Position numbers and translations under genes: made by a program. The notes beneath the pieces are model-generated. The model saw only the letters and a list, made by a program, of their open reading frames with translations. It was not told the DNA's origin and searched no databases. From Candidatus Uhrbacteria bacterium (GTDB lineage: Bacteria; Patescibacteriota; Patescibacteriia; UBA9934; GWF2-40-263): DNA of 64,000 bases. Shown one piece after another: positions 5,769 through 61,775 of the stretch (within the stretch, counting starts at the first letter, position 1; each line of letters opens with the position of its first letter). Location: NCBI GenBank assembly GCA_016844925.1, contig JAERTI010000038.1:2936-66935 (forward strand), written 5' to 3'.

Positions 5769-6719
5769 ATGAATGCTTTTTCTTCCGTCATGGGCCACGA
5801 CAGGGCCATTACTTTGCTTTCAAAGATGCTCGAGCACGGCACAATCCCACACGCTTTTCTTTTTGTGGGCGCTCGGGGTCTTGGGAGGACTACGGTAGCC
5901 AAGGCATTAATAGGAGAGCTACTAGGACAACAGGTCTCAATGGATCTCCATCCAGACGTGCACACCCTCCAGGTGCTTAGCGACGAGAAAACGGGGAAAC
6001 TCAAAAAGAACATCTCCGTGGAGCAGGTGCGCGAGCTTAACGGGCGCATTGCCATGACATCATTGTCAGGCTCTTGGAAGATTGTTTGGATCGAAGAAGC
6101 AGAGAAGCTCTCTATGGGGGCAGCAAACGCCTTGCTCAAGACGCTTGAGGAACCAAAAGGCCAGACACTCTTTATTCTTCGAGCACCAGAAGTTGATCAG
6201 CTCCCGGCAACCGTTGTGTCTCGTTGTCAAACAGTACGATTCTCAACCGTTGCCCGTCAGGATATTGTTGATGGACTTGTGCGACTGGGATTTGCCCCAT
6301 CGGATGCAAGCCGCGCTGCTGCCAGGAGCATGGGGCGTCCAGGGCTCGCTCTGAGGTACTTAAAGGATACGGCGTATCGCTCGCTGAACGAGACTGGGGT
6401 GGCACAGGCACAGGCCTTTCTTTCTGCGGGCTTGCCAGAGCGTCTTGCACAGGTTCTGGAGATGATCCCCAAGGCAGAGGTCAACAAGATGGGGCGGCTA
6501 AGTGAAGTGGTTGATCAGCTGCAGCTCGTTTGCCGAGATCGACTTCTAGATTCCGTTGGTTGCTCTTCACTTTGTGTGACCGAAGAAACGTCAGGTCTAA
6601 AAGGACTCACACAAGCTGATGTGATTGTTGTATTGGATCGACTCGCACAAGTTCGCTCTGCTATTTCACAAAATATCAATCCTCATTTGGCACTAGAGCA
6701 TGTGGCTCTTAGTGCATAA
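5769..6719 (+). CDS. holB: DNA polymerase III delta-prime subunit
   Basis: AAA+ clamp-loader layout: HAFLFVGARGLGRTT Walker A region, then an ATVVSRCQ sensor motif. Extended -10 TGATATAAT at 5744-5752. Confidence 0.8.
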   Translation: MNAFSSVMGHDRAITLLSKMLEHGTIPHAFLFVGARGLGRTTVAKALIGELLGQQVSMDLHPDVHTLQVLSDEKTGKLKKNISVEQVRELNGRIAMTSLSGSWKIVWIEEAEKLSMGAANALLKTLEEPKGQTLFILRAPEVDQLPATVVSRCQTVRFSTVARQDIVDGLVRLGFAPSDASRAAARSMGRPGLALRYLKDTAYRSLNETGVAQAQAFLSAGLPERLAQVLEMIPKAEVNKMGRLSEVVDQLQLVCRDRLLDSVGCSSLCVTEETSGLKGLTQADVIVVLDRLAQVRSAISQNINPHLALEHVALSA

Positions 6720-7801: not shown

Positions 7802-8356
7802 ATGCATCCAATCCTTTCACAGAAACGTCCAGACTATCAGTCAGCTGTTGATCATTTGCACAAGGAGTTAGGGGCTCTTCGCACAGGTCGAGCAACACCG
7901 GCGCTCGTTGAGGATATTCCCGTTAGTGCCTATGACTCCATTATGGAGATTAAGGGTCTGGCTTCGATTCAATCGCAGGATGCTAAGACACTCGTCATTG
8001 ACCCGTGGGACAAGGGGCTTACAAGAAACATTGAGAAGGGGATTCGCGATGCAGGCGTTGGCTTGAGTCCTGTTGTTGATGGGGAGGTGATTCGTATTGT
8101 CATGCCACCAATGACCGAGGAGAATCGCGCGCAGATGGTGAAGAAGATGAAGGAGTTTCTTGAGGAGGCAAAGATTCGTATTCGCGGCGTGCGAGAGGAT
8201 GGGCGTGACCAGGTGAACAAGATGGAAAAAGAGAAGGAGATTAGTGAAGATGAGAAGTACAAGCTGTTTGATGAGTTCGATAAGATGACGAAGGAGTTCA
8301 CCAATGAGGTGGATCAGATTGGAAAAACAAAGGAAGAAGAAATAATGACGGTGTAG
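7802..8356 (+). CDS. frr: ribosome recycling factor
   Basis: 184 aa. The overall sequence fits RRF ([20 protein letters not shown]...). Confidence 0.85.
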
Positions 8357-14283: not shown

Positions 14284-15609
14284 ATGTCGAAACATTTGTA
14301 CCCTCACTTTAAGCCTTCTACCGAATGGCTCATCACAATCATGTCGCTGTTCATGATTTTTGGAATCGCCATAGATGGATGGGCTCATAATCATATTGGC
14401 GTTGATCTGCATCCATTCTTCACGCCGTATCACGCAGTCCTTTACGGCTCTTATGGAATAACAGCACTCATTTTTTTCTACGAAGCTTTTAAAAATCACC
14501 AAAAGGGATTCTCGTTCAGGAAGTTGTTGCCAAAGGGGTATGGACTTTCGATGATCGGAATCATTGCGTTTGGCCTTGCTGGTTTTTTCGACATGATCTG
14601 GCATTTATTTTTGGGCGTTGAGATTGTGACGATGGACATCACCTTGAGCCCAGCACATTTGCTGCTTGCTTTTTCCGGGATGGCCATCATGAGTGGGGCT
14701 TGGCGTTCTCTGTGGCATCATCGTGAGTTACCTGTGGGTCTCTGGAATCAGCTCCCTTTTATTTTTTCTTTTGCGTTCACACTCATGCCGCTGCTGTTCA
14801 TGCTTCAGTGGGCGAATCCTTGGGTGTATCCATGGGTGGACGTGACTCAAGAGATTGTCTATCCGTATTTCATTGCCGGAGGGATACTAGACGCTGAGTT
14901 TCTTGGTGTGGCGATGGGGGCAGCAGGCATGCTTATTATTGGAACGCTGCTGACGATTGCCTTCCTGCATTCTCTCAAGAGGTTTATGTTTCCCGTCGGT
15001 GGAATTGCCCTCACGTTAGTGTTCTCTGCTTCCTATCTCATATTCATGAGAGATGGCTATTCGGTCATTCTATATGTGCTCATTGTGGGCCTTGTTCTCG
15101 AGTGGGTATTTGCCATGGTGCGTAAGTTGGGAGCTTCAAAATTACTTTTCGTTCGATTGTTTTCTGTGCTGTTCCCGCTCATTCTTTGGTTGGGTTATTT
15201 TGCGTGGATTAATGTGGTATCGAGTACGACCTGGTCCATGCATGTATTTACTGGAGAGCTCTTTCTCTTAGCGGCAACAGGTTTTCTCTTGGGGCATGTG
15301 ATTATTCCAGATAAGGACGCGGCATCTATTGAGCTACCAAGGGGGGGCACAACAACATCAAGCTTCTTGTTGCTCTGTGGAATTTCAGTTTTTGGTGTGC
15401 TTATGTACCTTCTCCCGACGCAAACATCCTTGCATACGATTCTTCAGCCACAATTTAATCGCGCGGATCTTGTGCAGCCACCTGTGGAGCTCTTGCCAAC
15501 GGTGCGTGAGTTTACTGGAAGAGATGATTTCATTATTTACGGTGAAGAAGAAACTCTGCCAGAGAATCATCATCTTTACGATGTGCTGTCCGATGATCAT
15601 CATGAGTAG
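14284..15609 (+). CDS. polytopic integral membrane protein (about 12 TM), function unknown
   Basis: 441 aa, many hydrophobic helices, backbone GC. Confidence 0.6.
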   Translation: MSKHLYPHFKPSTEWLITIMSLFMIFGIAIDGWAHNHIGVDLHPFFTPYHAVLYGSYGITALIFFYEAFKNHQKGFSFRKLLPKGYGLSMIGIIAFGLAGFFDMIWHLFLGVEIVTMDITLSPAHLLLAFSGMAIMSGAWRSLWHHRELPVGLWNQLPFIFSFAFTLMPLLFMLQWANPWVYPWVDVTQEIVYPYFIAGGILDAEFLGVAMGAAGMLIIGTLLTIAFLHSLKRFMFPVGGIALTLVFSASYLIFMRDGYSVILYVLIVGLVLEWVFAMVRKLGASKLLFVRLFSVLFPLILWLGYFAWINVVSSTTWSMHVFTGELFLLAATGFLLGHVIIPDKDAASIELPRGGTTTSSFLLLCGISVFGVLMYLLPTQTSLHTILQPQFNRADLVQPPVELLPTVREFTGRDDFIIYGEEETLPENHHLYDVLSDDHHE

Positions 15610-15670
15610 ATAAAAGAAAAGCCCCGCCCGAAAGGGTGGGGTTCGTTGTTGACGTGGTCAACGGAGAGGA

Positions 15671-17563
15671 TTACTTCTCGTAGGGGTTGTCGTAGTCGTC
15701 GTCACCGACATCGAAGATGGTCGGGACGTTCATGGTCGCCGAGAGCGACATCACGAACGCGGACGAGTCCGTTCCCTCTGCGGAAGTGATCACGTAGAAG
15801 GGGAACTTCTGCGCCTTCACTTGGGTTTCACCCATGAAGTCGACATCGAAGGTTTTGCCCAGACCAGGGAGTTCTTGGATGTGGGGAACCTTCGAGGCGT
15901 CCAGGCCGATGCTCGAACCTTCCGGCATGGGGAAGTTCTTCAAGGCACCTTCAGCGCGAGCGCTGAGGTTCATCGCCTCACCGTTGGTGACGGGGAGGGC
16001 CCTGATGCCGGTCTCATCCGCGGGGATGGTGTAGGTCACCGTCGGTCCGACGGAGATACCGATGCGAACAGGCTTCTCGAGGCTGTCCGCCAGCTCGGCG
16101 ATTTGCAGGGCGGCCTTGATGGCCATGGAGAGTCGCAGGTTCAGACTCATGCCTCGGCACTTGCCCAAGGCGCTCATCCAGACACACACGCAGCCGTCGC
16201 CGGTGAAGTTGTTGTACTTCCCGCCTTCCTTGAGGACGATCTGGTTGATGCCCGTCATGAAAGGTTGCATGAACTGGCCGACCTTGATGGGGTCGTCCAG
16301 CGTTGCCGACCAAGCGGTGAAGCCGACGATGTCCACGGTCATGGCGACCGTTTCTTCATCCGCCACCAGCGGGTTGTAGCCCGCCTGAACCCTTGCAAAG
16401 AACTCTGGGTCCGGGTGAACGGTCCTGGCGATGGCGCGCAAGATGGCGGCCTCGCGGGCCGTCTTTGCGGCCTGCATGGAGCGTCCCGTTGCCTGGCGTT
16501 CCTTCGTCCAGGTCTGCTCGTAGTCGCCCTTGCCGGTCAGGCGCTTGGCGTTGGGGATCAGTGCGGCGAGACGGTCGCCCAGGGTGCGGTTCCACTTGAC
16601 GGTCAGGACCGTGCGCAGGAACGGGGACTGGGCGTCATCGATCTGGTAGATCTCGCCCGCGTGCACGACGGGGAGCTGTTTGAGCTCGCCTTCCCGCACG
16701 ATCTTGTTGGGCGTGAGGATGTCCTTCTCGATGCGGATGCCGCGGACAGAGCCCGAGGGGGTGTCCGAGTAGTCTCCGTTGCAGGAGCCATCCTCGTCGA
16801 TCTTCAGCCAGACCAGTCGTCCGTAGATCTCACCGTCGATGATGAGCGTCTTGCCGTTCCAGTGAACCTCCTTCTCAGGGGCCCACATCTTCAGCAGGGG
16901 GACGATGGGGAGTTCCACGAGCCGGTACTTGACCGTCCCTTCGTCACGTCCGGGCAGGATGCCGGGCATGGCTTGGTTCATCCCGCGGATCAGGTGCAGG
17001 AGCGCCGGAGCGTCCTGCAGACGGTTGACCACCTTGTTCTGGGGGCCGCCAGGGTTGTAGACGCAGACGAGGCGGACTTCGCACTCGCCGATCCGGTAGG
17101 CGTACCAGGACTTGTTGGTGTTCCACGCGGCAGCACCTTCTTGGAGCTTCTGGTAGAGCACCCAGGGGCTGAGCATGAATCCGAGGAATCCGGCAAGCAG
17201 TCGTTCGATGGCGTCGAAGCCGAAGTTGATGTCCGGCGACGCACGGCCGATGAAGGACAGCTTGGAGACGTGCCCCAGCTGCTCGTCGACGATCTTGCTG
17301 ATGAGCTTGTCGTACTGCTCCAGCGTGATGTGGTCACTGTCATCCAGCATGGACGAGACGCTCTTGCCCTTGAGCTTGTCCGGAAGGTTGTCCCAGATCA
17401 CCTGACTCGAGAGCTGGAGCCTCTTGAGACCAACCATCAGAAGTCGAATGTTCCGTGCTGCGTTGATGGAGAGCCACTGCCTGATGGCCTCCATTTCTGC
17501 AACGTCCGTTCTCTTGTACCCGACAGACGTCAGGGTATCGATGCGCTGAGTGCGATCACCCAT
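15671..17563 (-). CDS. class III nucleotidyl (adenylyl/guanylyl-type) cyclase domain protein with a roughly 420-aa uncharacterised N-terminal region; high GC
   Basis: C-terminal catalytic motifs in canonical order: metal-binding Asp in TVDIVGFT, second Asp in NFTGDGCVCVW, VRIGISVGPTVTYTI, transition-state Asn/Arg in NGEAMNLSARAEG. Start placed at the ATG 17561-17563 (reverse strand) with GGAGG 6 nt upstream; the track's TTG start at 17638 is unlikely. Ends in a bidirectional hairpin region (15613-15668). Confidence 0.75.
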   Translation of the reverse strand: MGDRTQRIDTLTSVGYKRTDVAEMEAIRQWLSINAARNIRLLMVGLKRLQLSSQVIWDNLPDKLKGKSVSSMLDDSDHITLEQYDKLISKIVDEQLGHVSKLSFIGRASPDINFGFDAIERLLAGFLGFMLSPWVLYQKLQEGAAAWNTNKSWYAYRIGECEVRLVCVYNPGGPQNKVVNRLQDAPALLHLIRGMNQAMPGILPGRDEGTVKYRLVELPIVPLLKMWAPEKEVHWNGKTLIIDGEIYGRLVWLKIDEDGSCNGDYSDTPSGSVRGIRIEKDILTPNKIVREGELKQLPVVHAGEIYQIDDAQSPFLRTVLTVKWNRTLGDRLAALIPNAKRLTGKGDYEQTWTKERQATGRSMQAAKTAREAAILRAIARTVHPDPEFFARVQAGYNPLVADEETVAMTVDIVGFTAWSATLDDPIKVGQFMQPFMTGINQIVLKEGGKYNNFTGDGCVCVWMSALGKCRGMSLNLRLSMAIKAALQIAELADSLEKPVRIGISVGPTVTYTIPADETGIRALPVTNGEAMNLSARAEGALKNFPMPEGSSIGLDASKVPHIQELPGLGKTFDVDFMGETQVKAQKFPFYVITSAEGTDSSAFVMSLSATMNVPTIFDVGDDDYDNPYEK

Positions 17564-17609
17564 CCGTTGCCTCCTTTGTAAAGGGCACGCCATTGATTGG
17601 CGATGTGGT

Positions 17610-17638
17610 ACAATAGCCGTAATTACGGGGTTTGTCAA
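17610..17638 (-). promoter_or_regulatory. sigma70-like promoter TTGACA-N17-TATTGT upstream of the cyclase gene
   Basis: Read on the minus strand: TTGACA aaccccgtaattacggc TATTGT. Confidence 0.5.
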
Positions 17639-17649
17639 TCCTTTTTGCT

Positions 17650-19107
17650 ATGACAAGAATTTGGAGGTCTTCACTTGTTCGTTCCGCATATGGGGGCGCT
17701 GTTCAGGGATTTTATTATGGGCTTGCCTTTGTTCAGGCACCAATTTTGCTTGCGTTTGAAAAAGTTCTTCCGGTAGACACGCGAAAAGCGTTGTGGCGGA
17801 ACGTCTCCTACCTGAATTCACAGATGCTTTATGCTCTTTGGGGACTGAAGATTAAGGTGGATGATCGTCGAGATGGAGAGGGGCCATTTGTTTACATGTG
17901 TAACCATCCGTCAGCCTTTGATGGGTTTACCTGTTTTGGGTTGGTTGGTCCCAATGTCACAATGCTTACCGGGCCGAGAAAAATGTTCCCATACCCATTT
18001 AACTTTTGGTTCAAGAAAACAGGAGCCATTGATGTGATGCGCGATTGGTATGACGACGAGCATTTCAAGGATGGAGATTCTACGCCACGGCAGGAGGCCA
18101 TCGAGGAGCTTGTTCGTCGAGCGAAATCTGGAGAGAGTGTGTTCTTGTTTGGTGAGGGGCACATCGAGCGATCAGGTAGGTTGCAATACATTCATACGGG
18201 AGCTGCTCGGGTGGCGATCAAGGCTGGTGTGCCACTGGTGCCCATGTCACTTGTTGGGGAACAGAAGCTCATCTCAAAGCATCAGATGCGACCAGGGAAG
18301 TTAAAGGTTGTTTTTGGGGAGCCTATTCATCCACCAAAGGTCTCGACAGATAAGCAGTTTCGTAAGGCAGTGATTAAGCTTAGGGACCATGCCTGGAAGA
18401 TGATGCGTGAGCAGTTGCCACATCGGTATCAACGAGATTTTTTTAACGAGGGAGTAAGGGAGGATGTGGGAGTCTTTGTCGACATCGATGGAACGATTTA
18501 TAAGGGATATTCAATGAAAGATTTTTTTCGTTGGCTTATCCGCAAGGGACACTTATCAAAAGAGCAGATACGGGCTGTTGAAAAAGCGGTGTTTCTAAAT
18601 GCGACAAATGTTCTTTCTCATGCGGAGATGATGGAAGGCATTGCTAAGAGCTTTGCTGGCTGGAAGCAGCTAGATCTTCAAAGATATGCCAGAGAGTTTT
18701 ATGAGGAGGAGGGATATAAGAAGTACAATCACCATCTCTTAGGGTTCATGAAAGATCATCAAGAGTGCAAACATCGATTGGTGATTATTTCTGAGACGAT
18801 TCAGCCACTAGCTGAATGCTTCAGAGATGTCATTGGGGCAGAGGAGGTGTTTGGATCAAAGATGGAAGTGAGAAACGGGGTCTACACAGGGAAGATTTTG
18901 CGTCTGATGAGAGACAAGGAAAAGCGTTCCTGTGCGCAGGTCTATGCGCAGAATCATGATCTAAACATTCACGACAGCTTTGCTTACGCGGACTCTATGT
19001 CAGACCTTCCGATGTTTAGACTGGTGGGGCATCCTGTGGTTGTTGATCCCCATAACAGTGCATTATCCGCTATAGCCAAGAAGCGTCATTGGGAGATGAT
19101 TCATTAG
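17650..19107 (+). CDS. fusion protein: 1-acyl-sn-glycerol-3-phosphate acyltransferase (PlsC-like) domain plus a HAD-IB phosphatase-like domain
   Basis: HX4D acyltransferase motif in MCNHPSAFDGF. HAD motif I in VFVDIDGTIYKG. Start ambiguous between TTG 17632 and ATG 17650. Confidence 0.7.
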   Translation: MTRIWRSSLVRSAYGGAVQGFYYGLAFVQAPILLAFEKVLPVDTRKALWRNVSYLNSQMLYALWGLKIKVDDRRDGEGPFVYMCNHPSAFDGFTCFGLVGPNVTMLTGPRKMFPYPFNFWFKKTGAIDVMRDWYDDEHFKDGDSTPRQEAIEELVRRAKSGESVFLFGEGHIERSGRLQYIHTGAARVAIKAGVPLVPMSLVGEQKLISKHQMRPGKLKVVFGEPIHPPKVSTDKQFRKAVIKLRDHAWKMMREQLPHRYQRDFFNEGVREDVGVFVDIDGTIYKGYSMKDFFRWLIRKGHLSKEQIRAVEKAVFLNATNVLSHAEMMEGIAKSFAGWKQLDLQRYAREFYEEEGYKKYNHHLLGFMKDHQECKHRLVIISETIQPLAECFRDVIGAEEVFGSKMEVRNGVYTGKILRLMRDKEKRSCAQVYAQNHDLNIHDSFAYADSMSDLPMFRLVGHPVVVDPHNSALSAIAKKRHWEMIH

Positions 19108-19622: not shown

Positions 19623-20207
19623 CTAGTTGCCCCGAATGCGGGCCAGGGCCGTGAGGATGTTCGCCCAGTCGTGCTCGGTGTCACCGTCGGGGTTCTGATC
19701 GATCCACTGCGCAACGATGCGGCCACCGTTGACCAGGGTGATGCCGTTGCGGACGCGGGGACCGCTGTTGAGCTTGATGCCGAGGATGCGGCGCAGGGTC
19801 TCCGAGGGGAGAAACACCGTGCGCTTGCCGGCCAGGCTCTCGATGCCGTGGTGGGTGCAGAGCTCACCGGCGCCGTAGACCGGCGCGCTGATGTAGGCGC
19901 GGTCGGTGTGACCGATCATGAGCAGTGCCGGCGTCTCCAGTTCGCAGGCGCGCTGCAAGAGCTGCTCGACTTCATCGAAGTGCTCCAGCCTCTTGATCGA
20001 GAGGATCAGGACCGGATCCTCGCTCGGCAGGATGCCGATGTGGATCGGCTTGTCCTGCGTGATGAGCCCGTCTCCTTCCGGACGCCAGAACGGCGTCATG
20101 GTGGCATCGGCAGGGAAGTCGCTCAGCAACGTCTGCGTCGACGTGCTGGGGGGCGGCTTCGTGGCCGGGGGCTGCTTGGGCCCGATCTGGGGGGTACGTC
20201 CTTCCAT
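19623..20207 (-). CDS. hypothetical protein (194 aa), high GC, Pro-rich N-terminus
   Basis: ATG at 20205-20207 (reverse strand) with GAGGAG 7 nt upstream; the track's TTG at 20213 is 2 codons longer. Own promoter and terminator. No domain recognised. Confidence 0.55.
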   Translation of the reverse strand: MEGRTPQIGPKQPPATKPPPSTSTQTLLSDFPADATMTPFWRPEGDGLITQDKPIHIGILPSEDPVLILSIKRLEHFDEVEQLLQRACELETPALLMIGHTDRAYISAPVYGAGELCTHHGIESLAGKRTVFLPSETLRRILGIKLNSGPRVRNGITLVNGGRIVAQWIDQNPDGDTEHDWANILTALARIRGN

Positions 20208-20275
20208 CTTCAAACTCCTCGATCTTCTGTAGTGGTTCAGCGTGCTCGCATCATTCAGCGGTTAGCACGAGCGGG

Positions 20276-22412: not shown

Positions 22413-24428
22413 GTGAGTTATGCACTGATCACGGGTGGCGGAACGACTGCCCCCGTGGATGTGATTCGCTCCATGGCCAACAGTGCCAAGGGAAGCTTCG
22501 CCATCGAGTTCGCACAGCAGTTTCAGCGTCGCGGTGTTCCTGTGGTGCTGGTGCTTTCCAAGGTGGCCAACGCCTTCAACGGCAGCCGGATCCCCAAGGG
22601 GGTCGAGGTGCTGCTCTACGAGACCTACGACGACTACATCCGCACCATCGCCTGCCTGCTCTCGCGGCGAGGTCAGCCGGCCTATGCGCTCAGCGCGGCG
22701 GCTGTGAGCGACTTCGGGAAGCTCGAGCCGGTGGTGGGCAAGATCAGTTCCGGTGGCAAGCTCACCCTCGAGCTCGATCCGCTCCCCAAGGTACTGGACA
22801 GCTGGCGCCCTCAGATGGGCAAGGCCTGCACGATCGTCGGCTTCAAGCTGATGAGCGCGCAGACATCCACGGTGGCGCAGGTGCTCGCGGCCGCGCGCAA
22901 GCAGAACAAGCGGGCGCGGTTGAACATGACCCTTGCCAACATCAAGGAGGAGATCACCGGTGGGATTCACCCTGTCTGGATGGTCACCCCCGACGGCGGC
23001 ACGGTTCGCATCGACGGCTACGCCGACGAAGTGGCACGGCAGGTGGTGGATCACATCATCCGCATCCACTACACGACGTGGCACCGAAGCGTGCGTCAGG
23101 GCGCTTTCGAAGAAGCGAGAGTGAGTTCGGGGGTGCTGGAGGAGCTTGCTTCGCCGATCATCGAGCTGGCTCAGCGGGTGGGGTTGCTCACGGATGCGTC
23201 CGGGAACATCTCTGTCTGTGACCCTGGGGTCGACGAGACCTTGCTGGTTTCGCCTCGTGGCGTCGACAAGTCGAAGTTGCGTGCCCGGGACATGGTGGTC
23301 GTTCAGCTGGGTGACGCGGGAGATCATGTGGTCCGTTGGTGGGGCAAGCAGGGAACCAAGCCCTCCATCGACACATCGGTGGTGCTGACCCTCAAGGGGC
23401 AGCTCAAGCCGTTCCAGGCCTCTCTGCACTTCCATGATGGCTGGGTTCTCGGCGACATCCCGCGCACGCGCCTGGCGTACCCCTGCGGAACGCTGGAGCA
23501 AGCCGCGGTGATCCGGGAGGCGGCGGCGAGCTTCCCGCGAAGGGCGTACTTCTGTCCCAACAAGCGGGGCCACAGCCTGATGATTGAGCTGCGCGACCAT
23601 GGACACATCCTGTTCGTGCACGAGCTGCGGACGTTGGTTCGTCGGCTTTCTCGCGAGTGGGATGCGGTCCTCAGCGCGTATCGACAGCACCTTGCTGACA
23701 TCGGTCGCGAGGACTTCATGGAGCGCATTCGTGTTCAGCCCATCTGGCTCGTCAACGAGATCATCGGTCTCACGGCAGAACTCGACGGCAACCGCTCCTT
23801 CTACTTGCTGGAGACCGCTCGCGGTAAGGGCCTGGGTGAGCAGCTCATCGAGCTGATCTACAGGCGCGGCCAGCAGGTCGTCGCTCACGACGGCTGCGGT
23901 GTGGCAGACTTCTACCGCCGCCGCGGATTCCGAACGGTCGAGCGCATCGAGGAAGAGGGTCTGACGGTCCTCGAACCGCCGACGCTTCGTCAGGACCTCA
24001 TCGACGCGACGACGGTCACGTTCCACTGCACCACGACGGATCGAGTGCTGCTCATCCAGCGCGGAGAGGGAACGACCTATCCCGAGTGGTGGGCCAACCC
24101 TGGCGGCCGAGATGATGAGGGTGATCGCAACCCTGTCGCCACGGCCGTGCGTGAGGGGCTCGAGGAGATCGGTGTGGACTTCACGGGGCTTCCGGATCCG
24201 GACAGGATCACGGTGCACTACACCGGCTGGGTGAACCCCAAGGCTCCTCAGCAGGAGCGCGGCTACCGGGTCAAGCACCTGGTGGTCCCGGTCGTGATCG
24301 AGTTCGAGCCGCATCCCGACGGCAGTGAGGTCACCGACGCGCAGTGGTCCTCCAAGGACGAGGCGCGCGAACGAAAGATGGGGCCCGCCACGCGCGCGAC
24401 GCTCCGCAAGATCTGGTCGGACTTCTAG
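22413..24428 (+). CDS. four-domain fusion protein: CoaB-like (phosphopantothenate--cysteine ligase-like) / class II aldolase-adducin-like / GNAT-like / NUDIX hydrolase; high GC
   Basis: N-terminus ITGGGTTAPVD...SAKGSFA...DFGKLEPVVGKISSGGKLTLEL follows the CoaB pattern. Middle SGNISVC, LVSPRGV, HFHDGW, RDHGHILF follow the FucA/AraD pattern. Then ARGKGLGEQL (GNAT-like). C-terminal Nudix box GGRDDEGDRNPVATAVREGLEEIGV. GTG start at 22413 with AAGGAG upstream. Confidence 0.7.
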   Translation: MSYALITGGGTTAPVDVIRSMANSAKGSFAIEFAQQFQRRGVPVVLVLSKVANAFNGSRIPKGVEVLLYETYDDYIRTIACLLSRRGQPAYALSAAAVSDFGKLEPVVGKISSGGKLTLELDPLPKVLDSWRPQMGKACTIVGFKLMSAQTSTVAQVLAAARKQNKRARLNMTLANIKEEITGGIHPVWMVTPDGGTVRIDGYADEVARQVVDHIIRIHYTTWHRSVRQGAFEEARVSSGVLEELASPIIELAQRVGLLTDASGNISVCDPGVDETLLVSPRGVDKSKLRARDMVVVQLGDAGDHVVRWWGKQGTKPSIDTSVVLTLKGQLKPFQASLHFHDGWVLGDIPRTRLAYPCGTLEQAAVIREAAASFPRRAYFCPNKRGHSLMIELRDHGHILFVHELRTLVRRLSREWDAVLSAYRQHLADIGREDFMERIRVQPIWLVNEIIGLTAELDGNRSFYLLETARGKGLGEQLIELIYRRGQQVVAHDGCGVADFYRRRGFRTVERIEEEGLTVLEPPTLRQDLIDATTVTFHCTTTDRVLLIQRGEGTTYPEWWANPGGRDDEGDRNPVATAVREGLEEIGVDFTGLPDPDRITVHYTGWVNPKAPQQERGYRVKHLVVPVVIEFEPHPDGSEVTDAQWSSKDEARERKMGPATRATLRKIWSDF

Positions 24429-24461: not shown

Positions 24462-24528
24462 GATTGATGTTGGTTGACATGAGGGTGTTCGTGTATTATG
24501 AAGAGTGAGCATCCAACCTGGAGGGATC

Positions 24529-25350
24529 ATGCACATGCGTTCTTTGCTCTTGCCTTTCTGCCTCTTCGCTCTGGTGAGCTGCACGCCGCCGGACGCCGAG
24601 GATCCGTTCGTGAAGTCGGACGACAGCGACAACACCGGCACCGTCGAAGACTCCGACGACGGAGATGGCGGTGGTGACACGGACGACGACGACAGCGCCG
24701 AGCCGGTCGACGAAGACGGTGACGGGTACAGCCCCGATCTGGACGACCAGGACTGCGACGACAGCGACGACACGATCTACCCGGGCGCGCCCGAGGTCTG
24801 CGGCGATGGCATCGACCAGGACTGCGACGGTTCGGATCTCGAGTGCGAAGAGAAGACCGGTGAGTGGAGCGCCATCGTGTGCGAGATGGAGCACAGCTGG
24901 TTCCGCGACGACGAGATCGAGTGGGAGATCGAGTGGTACGAGGATCGTGGTGGTGACGACCCCCTCGAGGTGGGCGTCGCCTTCAACTACCTCATGGAGG
25001 AAGACCAGCTCATCCAGGCCGACGCCTACACGGTGACCTGGCCCACGCACTACGAGAGCCTCGAGTCCTACCCCGTCTACGACGGCGAGGTCGACTACGA
25101 CGGTCAGCCCCTCAACTTCACCAGCTTCCGCATGGAGTGGAGCGACCGGAGCGAGCCCCAGCCGGGCCTCTACGACTTCTTCGACGCCGCGGGCAACATG
25201 ACCCTCAGCCCCGGAGACGTCGTCTCCTTCGCCATGTGGTCCTGGAGCGACTACGACGGCGAGCCCGTCTACCTCCACTGGACCATCAACGAGTACGGCA
25301 TGGAGGACTACTACGGGACCTGCTACCTGACCTGGTCCACCGAGGAGTAG
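24529..25350 (+). CDS. Asp-rich lipoprotein with a MopE-type (Myxococcus-type) cysteine-rich putative metal-binding motif; high GC
   Basis: Signal plus lipobox MRSLLLPFCLFALVSC. Motif DEDGDGYSPDLDDQDCDDSDDTIYPGAPEVCGDGIDQDCDGSD. GGAGG 4 nt upstream of the ATG at 24529. Confidence 0.65.
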   Translation: MHMRSLLLPFCLFALVSCTPPDAEDPFVKSDDSDNTGTVEDSDDGDGGGDTDDDDSAEPVDEDGDGYSPDLDDQDCDDSDDTIYPGAPEVCGDGIDQDCDGSDLECEEKTGEWSAIVCEMEHSWFRDDEIEWEIEWYEDRGGDDPLEVGVAFNYLMEEDQLIQADAYTVTWPTHYESLESYPVYDGEVDYDGQPLNFTSFRMEWSDRSEPQPGLYDFFDAAGNMTLSPGDVVSFAMWSWSDYDGEPVYLHWTINEYGMEDYYGTCYLTWSTEE

Positions 25351-28880: not shown

Positions 28881-28972
28881 TATGAATCGCGGTGCTGGAT
28901 TTTCTCATACCTGCAGAGCGAGAGGATTTTGCAGGTGTGGGAAGAGCTCACGCCGGATACAGGGAGGCAACG

Positions 28973-30526
28973 TTGACTCAAGTCATTCTTCTACTCGGAG
29001 CTGCTGGGTGTGGCAAGACCACGCTCATCGGCAGCATCGTTCGCAACTTCGGAGGCGATCGATCGATCGCGGTCGTCTTCAACGACGACGGGGATCCCGA
29101 GGCCACCGATCTGCCCGACGATCTCGGGCGGTTCGCCGACATCACGTCCATGACAGCAGGGTGCTTCGGATGCACCGATTCGACGGCCTTCCTGGAGTGC
29201 ATTCAGGCTCTCCAGGAGCAGGTGCCGGCACTCGACGTCATTCTGGTGGAGCCCGTGGGTTTCACCGATGCACAAGAGATGCTCGACACGCTGGCCGAGA
29301 TCCATGTGATCCCGACGGTGGTCGCACTGGTGGATGCGGCGCATCACGCACACAACCTGAAGCTGGGTACGACCGAAGGTCACGTTTTGGCCGCCGACTG
29401 CACGCTGGTCACCAAGATCGACGCTGCGGACACGAGCATGAACGTGGTCTCCTGGTCCCAGGAGCGCTGTTCGGATGTCCGGGTCTTCCGGGCTGACGAC
29501 GTCTTCGACCCGGCGACCATCAGGTTGCCAGCGCATGCGCATCATCACGACTGCGGCCACGATCACGTGCACGGCGAATCGTGCGATCACCACCATCATC
29601 ATGACGATGGTCATCATGACCATCACCACAGCCACGGACATTCCCACGGACATGTCTGCACCTTCCATGCGCGACTCGCGTCGGAGGTGAATGTCGACAC
29701 GGTCAGGGGAGTGCTCGAAGATCACCCACTGGTGCTCCGAGCCAAGGGGCTCGCTTCCAGCGGACGCTTCAGCATGGTCCAGGGGAGCTGGGACATCTCG
29801 GAGGATAGTCCGGGAGTCAGCTTCATTACCTTCTACACCGCGCCCGGCGACAGTGTCGCTGGTGAGGCGTGCCTCGAGGCCTTGCGACCGCACTACGCGG
29901 TTGGGTCCGGAGGATTGAAGGGGACGATGGCCGCCATGCGCGGAGATACCGACGTGGAGGTGGTCGAGTACCAGCTCGATGTCTGTCGCCGCAAGCCGCT
30001 GACCTTCTCCGCAGGGCATCCGGTGCCCAGTCCGGAGTGGCTCGAGGTGCTGATCCTGCTGCGACATCGGCCGGGAGTCCCTGAAGACCTGAAGCTCGCG
30101 TGTGAGGAGGTGTATGTCAATCACTGCCTCGCGTGCGCGCGTTGGTACATGGACAATCCTGGTCGCGATGGTGAACCTGTTGCCACGGCGCGCATCCACG
30201 ACATCGCCGTCGGTCTGGGGTGGTTCGTGAACAAGAACGCTGAGAGTCTGCGTCCGGAGGTGGTTCGGGAAGCCGAGCGCATCCCGGTTGCCGGCTGGCT
30301 GCGAACCTCCCTCCTGGCCCGTACGCGGATCAGTCCCAACCGGGACAAGGAGCTGGTCATCGCAGAGGACGTCGCTGTCAGTGCCGCCTGGGCACTGCGC
30401 GTCGGTCAGACTCCCCAGGACCTCAAGAGCGCCTGGGATCACAACCGGCGTCTGGCTGAGGCCTCTGGCGACGCCACGGCTGTCGAGGCCTGGGTCGCAT
30501 CCTGGGAGACGGTCGCCTCCGCGTGA
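28973..30526 (+). CDS. divergent COG0523/G3E-family P-loop GTPase (CobW/ZigA-like metallochaperone) with a His-rich tract and a long C-terminal extension; high GC
   Basis: Walker A GAAGCGKTT at residues 9-17. The family's usual CxCC becomes GCFGC. His-rich stretch HAHHHDCGHDHVHGESCDHHHHHDDGHHDHHHSHGHSHGH. TTG start at 28973 with GGAGG 5 nt upstream; the in-frame ATG at 28892 lies in low-GC sequence with no RBS. Confidence 0.7.
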   Translation: MTQVILLLGAAGCGKTTLIGSIVRNFGGDRSIAVVFNDDGDPEATDLPDDLGRFADITSMTAGCFGCTDSTAFLECIQALQEQVPALDVILVEPVGFTDAQEMLDTLAEIHVIPTVVALVDAAHHAHNLKLGTTEGHVLAADCTLVTKIDAADTSMNVVSWSQERCSDVRVFRADDVFDPATIRLPAHAHHHDCGHDHVHGESCDHHHHHDDGHHDHHHSHGHSHGHVCTFHARLASEVNVDTVRGVLEDHPLVLRAKGLASSGRFSMVQGSWDISEDSPGVSFITFYTAPGDSVAGEACLEALRPHYAVGSGGLKGTMAAMRGDTDVEVVEYQLDVCRRKPLTFSAGHPVPSPEWLEVLILLRHRPGVPEDLKLACEEVYVNHCLACARWYMDNPGRDGEPVATARIHDIAVGLGWFVNKNAESLRPEVVREAERIPVAGWLRTSLLARTRISPNRDKELVIAEDVAVSAAWALRVGQTPQDLKSAWDHNRRLAEASGDATAVEAWVASWETVASA

Positions 30527-36907: not shown

Positions 36908-37204
36908 AAAATCACTAAACCACAGTATGTAGAGCTGTGGTTTTATGTTTGCTGTACAAGTTTTTAGTGGCGGAATACGTTGACAAAAGCGTTAAAAAAT
37001 GGTAGTCTCCTTTCCTGGCTTACAATCTGGAACCCACTCTTTCTTCCGTGGAGGAGTGGATACCGATGGGTACTAGAATCCCCAAAAAGCATTCAGAAAC
37101 ACGCATTAGCGGTTCTCCCTCTGTGAGGGATTTAGGACAATTAGTGCGTGTTTTTGGTCACGGAGACCATTGAATGCGATCAAGCCTTCAGTCCAAGAGA
37201 CAAC

Positions 37205-37765
37205 ATGAAGCGTTTTCTGATCCCCATGACCCTTATCCTTACCTCCTGCTTCGAGGGGGGTGCGAGTTTCCCCCTGGGGAAGAGTGGCTACTGCATGGGT
37301 GTTGGTCTGGGAACGGGAGAGGGGAAGCTCGAGTGGCTCGACATCGAGCTCAACGAGTGCATCCCGGAGGGATACTACGGCTGCGACCAGATCGACGTGA
37401 ACTACGATGGGGCCTTCGGTGGAGCGAGTTGCCAGGGGGCGTACGACTTCCCGGATTCCTACACCATGAGCTTCGTCACGTCTCGAGAGGTGACCCTCGC
37501 TGTGGTCTCGTGGGAGACGGACATGATGGACAGTTCTTTCAACGAGATCCTGTACCCTGTCTGGGTGGGTGATTCGAACTACGAGTTCGTCATGCACTTC
37601 CCGAACCCTGGGTACGGATCCGACGGTGACCAGATCGACTACAGCATCGACGTCTACATCGGCAACACGCTGATCGCTGACCCGGTGGTCAGCGCGACGC
37701 TCGACGGCGTCCCCGAAGACGTCGACTACGACGCACGAGACCGCGAGTACAGCTCGAGGTGGTAA
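37205..37765 (+). CDS. lipoprotein, hypothetical; high GC
   Basis: ATG at 37205 gives the lipobox MKRFLIPMTLILTSC. About 170-nt leader containing a 35-codon uORF. Confidence 0.55.
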   Translation: MKRFLIPMTLILTSCFEGGASFPLGKSGYCMGVGLGTGEGKLEWLDIELNECIPEGYYGCDQIDVNYDGAFGGASCQGAYDFPDSYTMSFVTSREVTLAVVSWETDMMDSSFNEILYPVWVGDSNYEFVMHFPNPGYGSDGDQIDYSIDVYIGNTLIADPVVSATLDGVPEDVDYDARDREYSSRW

Positions 37766-47960: not shown

Positions 47961-48929
47961 CTAGAGCAGGCCTTCTTGCCGGTACCAGTCAATGGCTCTG
48001 GTGAGCCAGGCTTGGGTTGGTTCCGGGTGCCAGTCCAGTTCCTCGCGGGTTCGTTCGCAGAGGAAGTCTGCGTTGTCGCGGAGCATGGCTTGAACCTTTT
48101 CCGTGCCCATGGGGGTGGCCTTGCGTCCTGTCCGGTGACAGGTCCAGGTGATGACCTTTGCGAGGGAGAGAGCGAGCCAGCCTGGCAGGATGCGAGCGCG
48201 CTTGATGCGGGTTCCAAGCGCGAGCTCCAGCTGGAGGTACAGCTCCTCGGTTGTGTAGCTGTCTGCCGTGAGGGTGTAGATGCCGCGATGGGTCCCACGT
48301 TCACCGGCGGCGATGATGCCGCGCACGCAGTCGTCGATCGAGAGCAGGTAGAACGTGCTCTGGACGAATGCGGGGAGTGAGCCCTTGGCCATGGCCAGCA
48401 TGATCTTGGCGGAGCCTCCGAGGCGACGGCCCTGTACGGATGCCGGGCGCACGATGACGACCTCGGGTCCTTCGGGCCCCAGGTTTTGAACCACCGTCTC
48501 TGCGCAGAGCTTGGTGTGACCGTAGGCAGATCCTCGGAAGTCGGATGCGCCTGTGACACTCTTCTGCGAGATGGCCGTGACGCTGCTGATGTAGACGAGC
48601 CGCTTCACCTCTGCGCGCCGCATGGCTTCGCAAACGATCTGGGTTCCAAGCCCGTTCACCTTCCACATCTCCCCGACCTCTTGAGGGGGGAGATCCCATC
48701 CGTTGATGCCGGCCAGGTGGTAGACCACTTGGCAGCCTCGCATCATCTTGGTGAGCTGTCCGGTGTTGAACAGGTCTCCGTGCACGGCTTGGGCGCCTGC
48801 AGCCTCGACGGTTGCGGCGGCATCTTCTGAGCGGACGAGGGCGATCACGTCGTGGTGTTCACTCAGGGCGCGGATCAGCGATTCGCCGATGAATCCGCTT
48901 CCTCCGGTGATGAATACTCGTGAGTTCAC
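47961..48929 (-). CDS. NAD-dependent epimerase/dehydratase (extended SDR family); high GC
   Basis: FITGGSGFIG Rossmann motif right after a GTG start at 48927-48929 with AAGGAGGAACC upstream. YxxxK-like SAYGHTK. Terminator acggatcacaatgatccgt at 47922-47940. Confidence 0.7.
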   Translation of the reverse strand: MNSRVFITGGSGFIGESLIRALSEHHDVIALVRSEDAAATVEAAGAQAVHGDLFNTGQLTKMMRGCQVVYHLAGINGWDLPPQEVGEMWKVNGLGTQIVCEAMRRAEVKRLVYISSVTAISQKSVTGASDFRGSAYGHTKLCAETVVQNLGPEGPEVVIVRPASVQGRRLGGSAKIMLAMAKGSLPAFVQSTFYLLSIDDCVRGIIAAGERGTHRGIYTLTADSYTTEELYLQLELALGTRIKRARILPGWLALSLAKVITWTCHRTGRKATPMGTEKVQAMLRDNADFLCERTREELDWHPEPTQAWLTRAIDWYRQEGLL

Positions 48930-49054
48930 GGTTCCTCCTTCATGCGTGTGCATGCGCCGTATCTGTACCATATGTTACGGCCCTGTCAATGGATTTGTCG
49001 TATCATGCGAAGTTTTCCTCTTGAGATTTCGCCATTTTCTGGCATAGTAGGGCC

Positions 49055-61160: not shown

Positions 61161-61775
61161 TTAGAAGATCGTGCGATAGATGGTTGCGGGCCTCGTCGGT
61201 GTCGGGCGCTTTTCTTTGGTGTCCCACACCAAACCCTTGCGCTGCATGCGCAGGACGCGCTTGCGGAAGTTGGAGTGGTCCAGCGAAACATCCAGGATGC
61301 TCTCATAGACGCGTCGGAGTTCTGTGGCGGTAAAACCGTCACGACTCACGAAGCGGAAAGCTGTCACGCCCCGGCCGTGGGCCAGGTCTTCCTTGAGGAA
61401 GTCAAGGGCTTTTCTCAGTGCCTCGTTTCCCTTGTGGTCCTTGGTTGGCATCCTTGAGACATCTTTCCAGCAGAGGAATCGAAACTCGTGCTGGACGGAG
61501 TAGGGCTCTCCGATCATCAGTGGGTAGATGGTCATTCGGCCGGAGTTGTCAGCGGCCACAGACACGTGTCCTGAGAAGCGGAGGCGACCCTCCAGGCTCA
61601 GGTGGTTGTTGTGTTGGAGCATGGGCTCCAGGGGGCCTTCTGTCCAGTGGTGCTCCGGCCACCGTACGGGTTCGTCGGGAGGGTCGTTCAGCAGCACTCG
61701 CAGGGAAGGTTCCTTACCGTTCAGTCGAACATTGGCAACAGCGAGGCAGATGGTCTTGATCAAGACTTGCGCCAT
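61161..61775 (-). CDS. nrtR: NrtR-family Nudix-related transcriptional regulator (degenerate Nudix N-domain plus C-terminal winged helix); high GC
   Basis: C-terminal FTATELRRVYESILDVSLDHSNFRKRVLRMQRKGLV...RPATIYR matches the conserved NrtR wHTH signature. Own promoter TTGACA-N17-TAGGTT at 61812-61840 (minus strand). Confidence 0.7.
   Translation of the reverse strand: MAQVLIKTICLAVANVRLNGKEPSLRVLLNDPPDEPVRWPEHHWTEGPLEPMLQHNNHLSLEGRLRFSGHVSVAADNSGRMTIYPLMIGEPYSVQHEFRFLCWKDVSRMPTKDHKGNEALRKALDFLKEDLAHGRGVTAFRFVSRDGFTATELRRVYESILDVSLDHSNFRKRVLRMQRKGLVWDTKEKRPTPTRPATIYRTIF

What the first reader, a model, noticed from the sequence alone, without database searches (positions are those of the whole stretch)
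15671..17638. Orphan class III nucleotidyl cyclase with a large unknown N-terminal domain, in its own promoter/terminator cassette
The C-terminal 200 aa carry the full class III cyclase motif set in canonical order (DIVGFT, TGDG, RIGISVGP, NxxAR). The first roughly 420 aa match nothing recognisable and have no TM segment or Walker motif. Class III cyclase folds include adenylyl/guanylyl cyclases and the pyrimidine cyclases of Pycsar anti-phage systems. In my hand alignment the purine-specifying Lys position before TGDG reads Asn (KYNNFTGDG), which would hint at a non-canonical substrate; this is weak. The gene is a single high-GC CDS between unrelated backbone genes, with a TTGACA-N17-TATTGT promoter, a GGAGG RBS and a bidirectional terminator.
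Basis: partly seen in the sequence, partly recalled or inferred. Interest (0 to 1): 0.75.

Follow-up and report, generated by a model that had tools for sequence, protein, structure and literature searches.

The report
H-NOX-fold sensor fused to cyclase
This gene encodes a rare soluble signalling enzyme of tiny uncultured (CPR) bacteria: a nucleotide cyclase with an altered base-binding pocket, fused to a previously undescribed sensor domain that folds like the gas-sensing H-NOX domain, and almost always sitting next to a lipid acyltransferase gene.

Summary
The ORF is real, but the CDS is 15671-17563 (-), 630 aa. The TTG at 17638 is the -35 hexamer of its promoter. Evidence for a working gene: GC3 0.84 and dN/dS 0.14 against a 94%-identical orthologue.

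The sensor domain defines a rare family: 47 clusters among 1.84 billion representatives. The members that could be named come from Candidatus Uhrbacteria and Kerfeldbacteria, and nearly all carry a cyclase.

The gene is vertically inherited and syntenic, not an island. A PlsC-type acyltransferase+HAD gene lies beside it in 11 of 13 independent contexts. One relative carries cNMP-binding genes instead.

It is a sensor cyclase, not Pycsar. Ligand and product are unknown.

The parts
15671..17563 (-). CDS of the sensor cyclase, 630 aa (stop TAA 15673-15671; start ATG 17563-17561)
   Evidence: ORF. Start agrees with the 630-aa orthologue P0001 (94% id) and a conserved SD. GC3 0.84. dN/dS 0.14 against L003.
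16874..17491 (-). aa ~25-230: sensor domain with an H-NOX/V4R/Bet3-type fold. Family-invariant residues are N38, G97-H98, N150-K151, D184 and G194.
16595..16867 (-). aa 233-323: all-beta subdomain of unassigned fold. It carries the TPC (Cys286) motif in 73% of relatives; the window has Asn here.
   Evidence: Secondary structure of the model. Conservation. No structural match was attributed to it.
16364..16582 (-). aa 328-400: helical linker (long helix 346-379), then the conserved P384...G395 lead-in to the cyclase domain
   Evidence: secondary structure. P384 is conserved in 96% of relatives.
15779..16363 (-). aa 401-595: class III nucleotidyl cyclase catalytic domain. Metal Asp D411 and D456; R500; N532/R536; non-canonical base-pocket residues N452 and V525 (T526).
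15674..15778 (-). aa 596-630: acidic, poorly conserved, disordered C-terminal tail
   Evidence: pLDDT below 50 for residues 598-630. Alignment A1.
17610..17638 (-). sigma-70-type promoter: TTGACA (17638-17633), 17-nt spacer, TATTGT (17615-17610)
   Evidence: Scan gives 10 of 12 matches. The -35 TTGACA and a TAnnnT -10 are conserved upstream of orthologues in L003, L001, L002, L009, L012, L010 and L014.
17570..17574 (-). Shine-Dalgarno GGAGG, 6 nt before the ATG
   Evidence: Sequence. Conserved in L001 and L003.
15612..15641 (.). Bidirectional terminator-like hairpin (CCCCACCC-UUUC-GGGCGGGG) plus U-tract, shared with the convergent gene 14284-15609
   Evidence: Fold: - strand -19.7 kcal/mol (z -3.2); + strand -29.2 kcal/mol (z -6.6). 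The simple consensus scan missed it because of one mismatch.
17632..19107 (+). Divergent partner gene: membrane-anchored PlsC-type acyltransferase (NHPSAFD motif) fused to a HAD-IB hydrolase. The likely true start is ATG 17650.
   Evidence: Pfam PF01553 3.2e-15 and PF12710 8.7e-27. NCBIfam TIGR01490, TIGR00530. Adjacent to the cyclase in 11 of 13 independent contexts.

Best explanation
The gene encodes a cytoplasmic, probably homodimeric, ligand-regulated nucleotidyl cyclase. It belongs to a small family whose members, where they could be named, come from CPR/Patescibacteria (Candidatus Uhrbacteria and Kerfeldbacteria).

Proposed mechanism:
- An N-terminal module has an H-NOX/V4R/Bet3-type fold, which in other proteins holds heme or small hydrophobic ligands. 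Together with a beta-rich subdomain it binds an unknown ligand.
- The signal passes through a long helical linker to a class III cyclase domain.
- That domain converts an NTP into a 3',5'-cyclic mononucleotide.

The catalytic machinery is intact. In this clade both base-recognition residues have changed (Lys to Asn452, Asp/Glu to Val525). ATP is still the most likely substrate (about 50%), but relaxed or different specificity is possible.

The gene is part of the vertically inherited core of the lineage. It is genetically coupled, through a shared divergent promoter region, to a PlsC-type acyltransferase-HAD enzyme. The signal is therefore most likely tied to membrane-lipid acylation or remodelling.

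Shown: gene reality, domain folds, catalytic residues, family distribution, synteny and gene pairing.
Inferred: dimer, ligand class, product, link to lipid metabolism.
For: Gene reality:
- GC3 0.84.
- dN/dS 0.14 in both domains.
- Conserved promoter and SD.

Cyclase domain:
- Profile against PDB: sAC 7.8e-7, with D411 and D456 aligned to the sAC metal Asp positions.
- D411, D456 and R500 are invariant in 45-46 relatives; N532 and R536 are present.

Sensor domain:
- Model pLDDT 88.2.
- V4R, Bet3, VirS and DmpR sensor domains follow.
- An exhaustive HMM search finds only 47 clusters, nearly all 550-750 aa. Guanylate_cyc is the only recurrent partner domain.

Vertical inheritance:
- The same gene order occurs in L001, L003 and the Candidatus Uhrbacteria MAG L009. 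Identities are RRF 62%, acylT-HAD 47%, cyclase 40%.
- The window is colinear with L003 at 88-92% nt identity.

Functional coupling:
- The acylT-HAD gene is adjacent in 11 of 13 contexts, although other neighbours differ.

Product type:
- In L013 the cyclase is followed by small proteins with PF00027 cNMP_binding (29.3 and 27.0 bits).
Against: - No ligand can be named. H-NOX heme determinants are absent: YxSxR in 0 of 48, and no conserved His in the segment equivalent to helix alphaF. hhalign against H-NOX gives 0.2% probability.
- The window clade has lost residues conserved in the wider family: H101, C286 and, in this species, S187. Its sensing may therefore differ or be degenerate.
- Pfam Guanylate_cyc is below its gathering score for this protein.
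- No cNMP receptor was found in the 64-kb window.
- The conserved adjacency could partly reflect ancestral synteny rather than function, although it survives where all other neighbours have changed.
Confidence: 0.7

Rival explanations
1. It is the cyclase of a Pycsar-like anti-phage system. It would make cCMP or cUMP on infection, and the altered pocket (Asn452) would reflect pyrimidine specificity.
For: - PADLOC PycC HMM PDLC00734: E 3.5e-8, 31 bits.
- The position 4 residues before the second metal Asp is a specificity determinant in PycC enzymes: D94 in BcPycC, R142 in EaPycC, K104 in AnPycC (PMC11224242). Here it is non-canonical.
Against: - No CNBD-TM or CNBD-TIR effector lies next to it in the window or in 12 other contexts.
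- The gene is syntenic and vertically inherited among housekeeping genes.
- It is absent from viral contigs.
- PycC HMMs also hit 25 of 48 family members, including those with the canonical Lys, so the hit is generic.
- Canonical AC/GC structures and profiles score better.
- A large sensor domain is not a PycC feature.
Confidence: 0.05
2. It is a true heme-based gas sensor. This would be a bacterial analogue of soluble guanylate cyclase, in which NO, O2 or CO binding to a heme in the H-NOX-like domain switches the cyclase.
For: - H-NOX proteins, including human sGC beta1, are the best structural matches.
- The order sensor - middle domain - helical linker - class III cyclase parallels sGC.
- The wider family conserves His98 (98%), His101 (54%) and Cys286 (73%), which could act as axial or metal ligands.
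Against: - There is no Pfam HNOB hit, and hhalign gives 0.2% probability.
- YxSxR is absent in 48 of 48.
- No conserved His lies in the alphaF-equivalent segment. By motif alignment His98 maps to the alphaD-alphaE junction (inference).
- The window clade lacks His101 and Cys286.
- From general knowledge, not tested here: CPR bacteria generally lack heme biosynthesis.
Confidence: 0.12
3. It is a horizontally acquired high-GC island gene from an unrelated GC-rich donor, sitting as a self-contained cassette.
For: - GC is 0.61 and GC3 0.84, against a backbone GC3 of about 0.5.
- It has its own promoter and terminator.
- Very few homologues were found by the word-indexed search.
Against: - Orthologues occupy the same locus in genomes with 33-50% GC (L009, L001, L002, L003).
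- Divergence from L003 matches the flanks: 93% against 88-92% nt identity.
- The only organism names recovered for family members are CPR taxa.
- Elevated GC3 is shared by the 64%-identical orthologue in L001. That is too deep a split for an un-ameliorated transfer.
Confidence: 0.05
4. It is a catalytically silent or repurposed pseudo-cyclase. The cyclase fold would serve only as an NTP-binding or dimerisation module, as in the class III cyclase-like ATP-binding regulator 6yii.
For: - Both base-specifying residues are non-canonical.
- Pfam is below threshold.
Against: - All residues needed for chemistry (two Asp, Arg500, Asn532, Arg536) are kept under purifying selection.
- A relative is followed by cNMP-binding protein genes.
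Confidence: 0.08

Closest known systems
Soluble guanylate cyclase (H-NOX - PAS - coiled coil - class III cyclase) of eukaryotes
- A middle domain and a helical linker follow.
   Different: - There is no sequence homology to HNOB.
- There is no proximal His or YxSxR motif.
- The middle domain is all-beta rather than PAS.
- It is presumably a homodimer with all catalytic residues in one chain.
- The pocket is Asn/Val, not Glu/Cys.
- It is bacterial (CPR).
Bacterial H-NOX sensors (Tt H-NOX, So H-NOX, Ns H-NOX)
   Different: - Known bacterial H-NOX proteins act on histidine kinases or diguanylate cyclases/phosphodiesterases, or are fused to MCP domains (PMC8738867; PMC9814294 abstract). To my knowledge none is fused to a class III cyclase.
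- The heme-binding motifs are missing here.
Modular bacterial class III adenylyl cyclases with non-canonical substrate residues (e.g. M. tuberculosis Rv1900c, Asn/Asp pair)
   Same: - Homodimer-type CHD with an N-terminal regulatory domain.
   Different: - Rv1900c keeps the Asp of the pair and has an alpha/beta-hydrolase N-domain.
- Here both positions are changed (Asn452/Val525), with a one-residue insertion (P-V-T-N), and the sensor is of H-NOX type.
V4R / Bet3 / VirS-N / DmpR-type small-molecule sensor domains
   Different: - No Pfam match to V4R or TRAPP families.
- The conserved-residue signature differs (N38, GH98, NK151, D184).
- The output is a cyclase, not a transcription or trafficking function.
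Pycsar PycC pyrimidine cyclases
   Same: Class III fold. They are hit by the PADLOC PycC HMM. The residue 4 positions before the second metal Asp is variable.
   Different: - No adjacent effector.
- Core-genome synteny.
- A large sensor domain.
- Weaker structural and profile similarity than to AC/GC.

Membership tests
Class III nucleotidyl cyclase (CHD, Pfam PF00211) | Cyclase homology domain fold | tested here: met
Class III nucleotidyl cyclase (CHD, Pfam PF00211) | Two metal-binding Asp residues | tested here: met
   D411 (DIVGFT) and D456 (TGDG). They align with sAC VDISGFT and FAGDA. They are invariant in 46/46 and 45/45 relatives.
Class III nucleotidyl cyclase (CHD, Pfam PF00211) | Transition-state Asn/Arg pair and phosphate-binding Arg | tested here: met
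   N532 and R536 (NLSAR); R500 (RIGISVG). R500 is present in 46/46, R536 in 38/45, N532 in 27/45.
Class III nucleotidyl cyclase (CHD, Pfam PF00211) | Canonical base-specifying pair (Lys-Asp for AC; Glu-Cys/Ser/Thr etc. for GC; rules from PMC4215837) | tested here: not met
   N452 sits at the Lys position and V525 (then T526) at the Asp/Thr position; sAC T405 aligns with V525. Relatives have K in 30/45 and D/E in 34/45.
Class III nucleotidyl cyclase (CHD, Pfam PF00211) | Pfam gathering score | tested here: not met
   18.1 bits against a cutoff of 21.9 for this protein. 30 of 48 family members match at E<=0.01, best 4.7e-17.
Class III nucleotidyl cyclase (CHD, Pfam PF00211) | Cyclase activity and product identity | not testable with these tools
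   Needs an enzyme assay.
H-NOX (HNOB, PF07700) | H-NOX fold | tested here: met
H-NOX (HNOB, PF07700) | Sequence-profile membership | tested here: not met
   No PF07700 hit at E<=10 for 6 members or at E<=0.01 for 48 members. hhalign against a 5-sequence H-NOX alignment gives probability 0.2%.
H-NOX (HNOB, PF07700) | Proximal heme-ligating His on helix alphaF | tested here: inconclusive
   No column with at least 30% His lies between aa 102 and 168. The one conserved His (H98) maps by motif and secondary-structure order to the alphaD/alphaE junction. A residue-level superposition was not possible because no coordinates were available.
H-NOX (HNOB, PF07700) | YxSxR heme-propionate motif | tested here: not met
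   0 of 48 family members contain Y.S.R in the N-terminal 360 aa.
H-NOX (HNOB, PF07700) | Heme binding | not testable with these tools
   Needs spectroscopy of purified protein.
Pycsar anti-phage system | PycC-type cyclase | tested here: inconclusive
   PADLOC PDLC00734 gives 31 bits. The same HMMs hit 25 of 48 relatives regardless of pocket residues. Profile against BcPycC (7r65) gives E 0.22 and against AnPycC (8jsz) 0.46.
Pycsar anti-phage system | Adjacent effector gene with a cNMP-binding domain fused to a TM or TIR module | tested here: not met
   The window neighbours are acylT-HAD and a 441-aa membrane protein with no Pfam or NCBIfam match and not conserved at the locus. No CNBD was found in the window. 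Only L013 has CNBD genes, and those are small and soluble.
Pycsar anti-phage system | Patchy, island-like or mobile distribution | tested here: not met
   The locus is conserved and syntenic across Uhrbacteria-like genomes. There were no viral-contig hits.
Soluble guanylate cyclase architecture | H-NOX - PAS - coiled coil - cyclase, with a GTP-specifying Glu/Cys pair | tested here: not met
   The middle domain is all-beta with no PAS helices. The pocket is Asn/Val. Only the overall order of modules is analogous.

The most novel reading that the evidence does not exclude
The H-NOX-fold domain is a sensor for a host-derived hydrophobic molecule, either a lipid/acyl species or a scavenged tetrapyrrole. 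In this clade the remodelled Asn/Val pocket makes a non-canonical cyclic nucleotide. This would form a housekeeping second-messenger circuit that controls membrane-lipid acylation (the paired PlsC-HAD enzyme) in lipid-auxotrophic CPR episymbionts. It would also be a prokaryotic counterpart of the sGC sensor-cyclase design.
Probability: 0.12. Interest if true: 0.85.

Novelty: new variant of a known kind. Interest (0 to 1): 0.55.

Why it matters
Class III cyclases fused to sensor domains are common. This sensor domain, however, is an undescribed sequence family with an H-NOX-type fold. To my knowledge that fold has not been reported fused directly to a class III cyclase in bacteria.

The family is rare (47 clusters in 1.84 billion representatives), and its named members come from CPR/Patescibacteria, organisms with minimal signalling repertoires and no cultured models.

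The near-universal pairing with a PlsC-HAD lipid enzyme gives a concrete, testable link between second-messenger signalling and lipid handling. These are bacteria thought to depend on hosts for lipids.

The variable base-pocket residues across the family (K/D-E, Q/D, N/H, R/D, N/V) offer a natural series for studying how class III cyclases change nucleotide specificity.

Tried and rejected
- **Word-indexed homologue searches.** The full-length protein gave 5 hits. The N-domain alignment gave only 3. Tt H-NOX gave only 2, too few for a good H-NOX profile. I therefore verified four H-NOX sequences from memory against the PDB and ran hhalign locally. It was not significant.
- **Genome scans.** Genome contigs with A1 found nothing. 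A4 was too diverse for the pattern generator. A5 found one Candidatus Uhrbacteria MAG. Viral contigs found nothing. Metagenome contigs found only 2 loci, which correspond to P0007.
- **afdb50 fold library.** Unavailable.
- **Receptor search.** phmmer with E. coli CRP and with the L013 CNBD proteins against six-frame ORFs of the window found nothing. Sensitivity was low.
- **Small conserved neighbour.** The 196-aa GC-rich protein 19623-20213 has no Pfam, NCBIfam or PDB match.
- **Rfam.** No riboswitch or known RNA lies near the gene or in the long leaders of distant orthologues.
- **Palindrome in the promoter spacer.** The 12-bp CCGTAATTACGG is not conserved and was rejected as an operator.
- **Literature.** Searches found no description of this family or of cAMP signalling in CPR.
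Full report
**1. Observation**

The maximal ORF 15671..17638 (-) exists. The coding sequence almost certainly starts at ATG 17563:
- A GGAGG lies 6 nt upstream.
- The 94%-identical orthologue P0001 is 630 aa and starts MGDRT.
- The TTG at 17638 is the first base of the TTGACA -35 hexamer of a promoter-like site, TTGACA-17-TATTGT.

That promoter is not a chance match. TTGACA followed 17-18 nt later by TAnnnT is found upstream of the orthologues in L003, L001, L002, L009, L012, L010 and L014.

A hairpin plus U-tract follows the stop codon at 15641-15612. It folds well on both strands, so a bidirectional terminator shared with the convergent gene 14284-15609 is plausible.

The frame is real:
- GC3 is 0.84, against GC1 0.59 and GC2 0.41.
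- dN/dS against the L003 orthologue is 0.14, equally in the N- and C-terminal halves.
- The 586-aa antisense ORF is a GC-rich artefact.
- There is no TM segment and no Walker A motif.

**2. The cyclase domain**

Pfam Guanylate_cyc scores only 18.1 bits, below its gathering score of 21.9. Three other lines of evidence make the assignment safe:
- The PADLOC PycC model PDLC00734 gives E 3.5e-8.
- A profile of six orthologues hits sAC (7.8e-7), photoactivated cyclases (4e-6) and CyaB (5e-6) in the PDB.

The catalytic residues are in place: D411 and D456 (metal), R500, N532 and R536. The first three are invariant across 45-46 relatives.

N452 occupies the adenine-specifying Lys position. V525 occupies the Asp/Thr position, since sAC T405 aligns with it.

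Among 45 relatives that share the N-domain, 30 have Lys and 34 have Asp or Glu at these two positions. The window clade (window, P0001-P0007) invariably has Asn and a P-V-T-N insertion. Other subgroups have Gln/Asp, Asn/His or Arg/Asp. The pocket is therefore evolutionarily labile in this family.

The canonical rules are K-D for AC and E plus C/S/T/H/A/G for GC (PMC4215837). In PycC enzymes the same -4 position is a specificity determinant (PMC11224242). From my own knowledge, Rv1900c has Asn at this position and is still an adenylyl cyclase. The product therefore cannot be inferred.

**3. The N-terminal 345 aa**

By sequence this region matches nothing in Pfam, NCBIfam or the PDB.

An exhaustive profile search of 1.84 billion representatives finds only 47 proteins, nearly all 550-750 aa long. 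The only recurrent partner domain is Guanylate_cyc. The domain is therefore a dedicated cyclase-associated module.

With a 25-sequence alignment, AF2 gives a confident model (pLDDT 88.2, pTM 0.86):
- Next come the VirS N-domain, TRAPP Bet3-like subunits, YslB, V4R and the DmpR sensor domain.
- Foldseek independently ranks H-NOX and sGC beta1 chains first.

Residues ~25-230 therefore adopt the H-NOX/V4R/Bet3 superfold. Residues 233-323 form an all-beta subdomain that I could not assign. Residues 328-400 are helical and lead into the cyclase domain through a conserved Pro384.

It is not a canonical H-NOX:
- There is no HNOB Pfam hit.
- hhalign against an alignment of four PDB-verified H-NOX sequences plus one homologue gives 0.2% probability.
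- YxSxR is absent in 48 of 48 members.
- No His is conserved in the segment that corresponds, by order of secondary-structure elements, to helix alphaF.

The family signature is N38, G97-H98 (100% and 98%), N150-K151 (92% and 100%), Y/H169, D184, S187 and G194. H101 (54%) and C286 (73%, in a TPC motif) are also frequent.

The window clade has lost H101 and C286, and this species also has A187. Its sensor site has therefore diverged together with its catalytic pocket.

**4. Genomic and evolutionary context**

The only species-representative genome hit is a Candidatus Uhrbacteria MAG (L009, 40% identity). A more distant member (P0009) is annotated from Candidatus Kerfeldbacteria.

L009 shares the window's gene order: acylT-HAD, cyclase, TPR, TIM, M16 peptidase, a class II aminoacyl-tRNA synthetase (Pfam tRNA-synt_2b + HGTP_anticodon), RRF. 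Identities are RRF 62% and acylT-HAD 47%. The window is colinear with L003 at 88-92% nt identity, and the cyclase itself is at 93%.

The gene is therefore vertically inherited core content of a CPR lineage, not an island. No relative was found on viral contigs.

The most informative result is the neighbourhood. A gene encoding a PlsC-type acyltransferase (NHPSAFD motif) fused to a HAD-IB hydrolase lies next to the cyclase in 11 of 13 independent contexts:
- The contexts are window/L003, L001, L002, L009, L012, L010/11, L013, L014, L015, L016 and L019/20.
- The orientation is usually divergent.
- The pairing holds even where every other neighbour differs and the cyclases are only ~20-26% identical.
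- It was not seen in L017 (short flank) or L018.

In the window the two start codons are 87 bp apart. The cyclase -10 region read on the other strand gives TGnTAnnnT, an extended -10, and this too is conserved. This suggests overlapping back-to-back promoters, but that is inference.

In L013 the cyclase is followed by three small ORFs. Two match PF00027 cNMP_binding, at 29.3 and 27.0 bits against a gathering score of 27.5. This supports a cyclic mononucleotide product sensed by CNBD proteins in at least part of the family.

No CNBD protein and no second cyclase was found in the window.

**5. Interpretation**

The best-supported reading is a soluble sensor cyclase:
- An H-NOX/V4R-fold ligand-binding module regulates a class III cyclase through a helical linker. 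In other proteins this fold holds heme or hydrophobic small molecules.
- The cyclase has a complete catalytic core and a derived, non-canonical base pocket.
- The conserved pairing with a lipid acyltransferase-phosphatase points to a role in lipid acylation or remodelling, and makes a hydrophobic or lipid ligand attractive.

Ligand class, dimer state, product and physiological target are all inferred, not shown.

Rival readings:
- Pycsar is not supported. There is no effector, the gene shows core synteny, and the HMM hit is generic.
- A true heme/NO sensor is possible but disfavoured, because the heme motifs are missing.
- Recent HGT is contradicted by the synteny.

**6. Unexplained**

The gene's GC3 (0.84) belongs to a bimodal pattern in the window. 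About eight genes have GC3 of 0.73-0.90, against a backbone of ~0.5. The 64%-identical orthologue in L001 shows the same excess (0.77, against flanks of 0.48 GC), while the orthologue in the 33%-GC relative L009 does not. Colinearity with L003 excludes recent transfer. I have no explanation for this gene-specific codon bias.

**7. Verdict**

It is a new variant of a known kind. The sensor-cyclase design is familiar. The sensor family, its H-NOX-type fold, its rarity with only CPR taxa named among members, and its coupling to a PlsC-HAD gene appear to be undescribed (literature searches found nothing).

Noticed in passing
window, whole; e.g. 19623-20213(-), 22413-24428(+), 24505-25350(+), 28892-30526(+), 37148-37765(+), 47961-48971(-), 61161-61775(-): GC3 is bimodal. 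Backbone genes sit at about 0.45-0.58, but about eight scattered genes on both strands reach 0.73-0.90. The same genes are GC-rich in the 64%-identical orthologous region L001. The region is colinear and 88-92% identical with L003. This looks like gene-specific codon bias rather than recent HGT. Unexplained.
   Followed up: partly
window 17564-17650 (intergenic region between the cyclase and the acyltransferase-HAD gene): Only 87 bp separate the two divergent start codons. The reverse complement of the cyclase -10 region reads TGGTACAAT, an extended -10 pointing at the acyltransferase gene. The same arrangement is seen in L001, L002, L009 and L012. This suggests overlapping back-to-back promoters.
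   Followed up: partly
window 17588-17602 (-); L001, L002, L003 equivalents: A small 5'-UTR hairpin (CGCC-N7-GGCG) lies just downstream of the predicted transcription start. It is conserved, with compensatory changes in stem extension, in L001 and L002. No Rfam family matches.
   Followed up: no
L010 ~7830-7870 and L014 ~5850-5890: The distant orthologues from Kerfeldbacteria-like genomes have ~190-nt leaders with a conserved hairpin (GAAGAGGTGCAYTTCGGTGCWRATTCTTC) after the promoter. No Rfam match. This could be an uncharacterised regulatory RNA element.
   Followed up: no
L013 7802-9887: In one relative (P0015, Arg at the Lys position) the cyclase is followed by three small soluble ORFs. Two match cNMP_binding (29.3 and 27.0 bits). 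The acyltransferase-HAD gene lies just beyond.
   Followed up: partly
window 22413-24428 (+): A 671-aa GC3-rich protein fuses four domains: DFP (CoaB/C-like), class II aldolase, GNAT and NUDIX. The fusion is also present in L003. It is an unusual multi-domain metabolic fusion.
   Followed up: no
window 19623-20213 (-): A 196-aa protein has the highest GC3 of this group (0.89) and no Pfam, NCBIfam or PDB match. It is conserved near the locus in L001 and L003.
   Followed up: partly
window 17616-17627: A perfect 12-bp palindrome, CCGTAATTACGG, lies in the promoter spacer. It has one mismatch in L003 and is absent in L001, so it is probably chance.
   Followed up: yes
window 15821-17581 (+): A 586-aa antisense ORF overlaps the cyclase gene. 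It is an artefact of the high GC content, since GC3 is in phase with the minus-strand frame.
   Followed up: yes
L016 11184-13968: The GyrB gene next to a distant family member carries an intein (PF14890).
   Followed up: no
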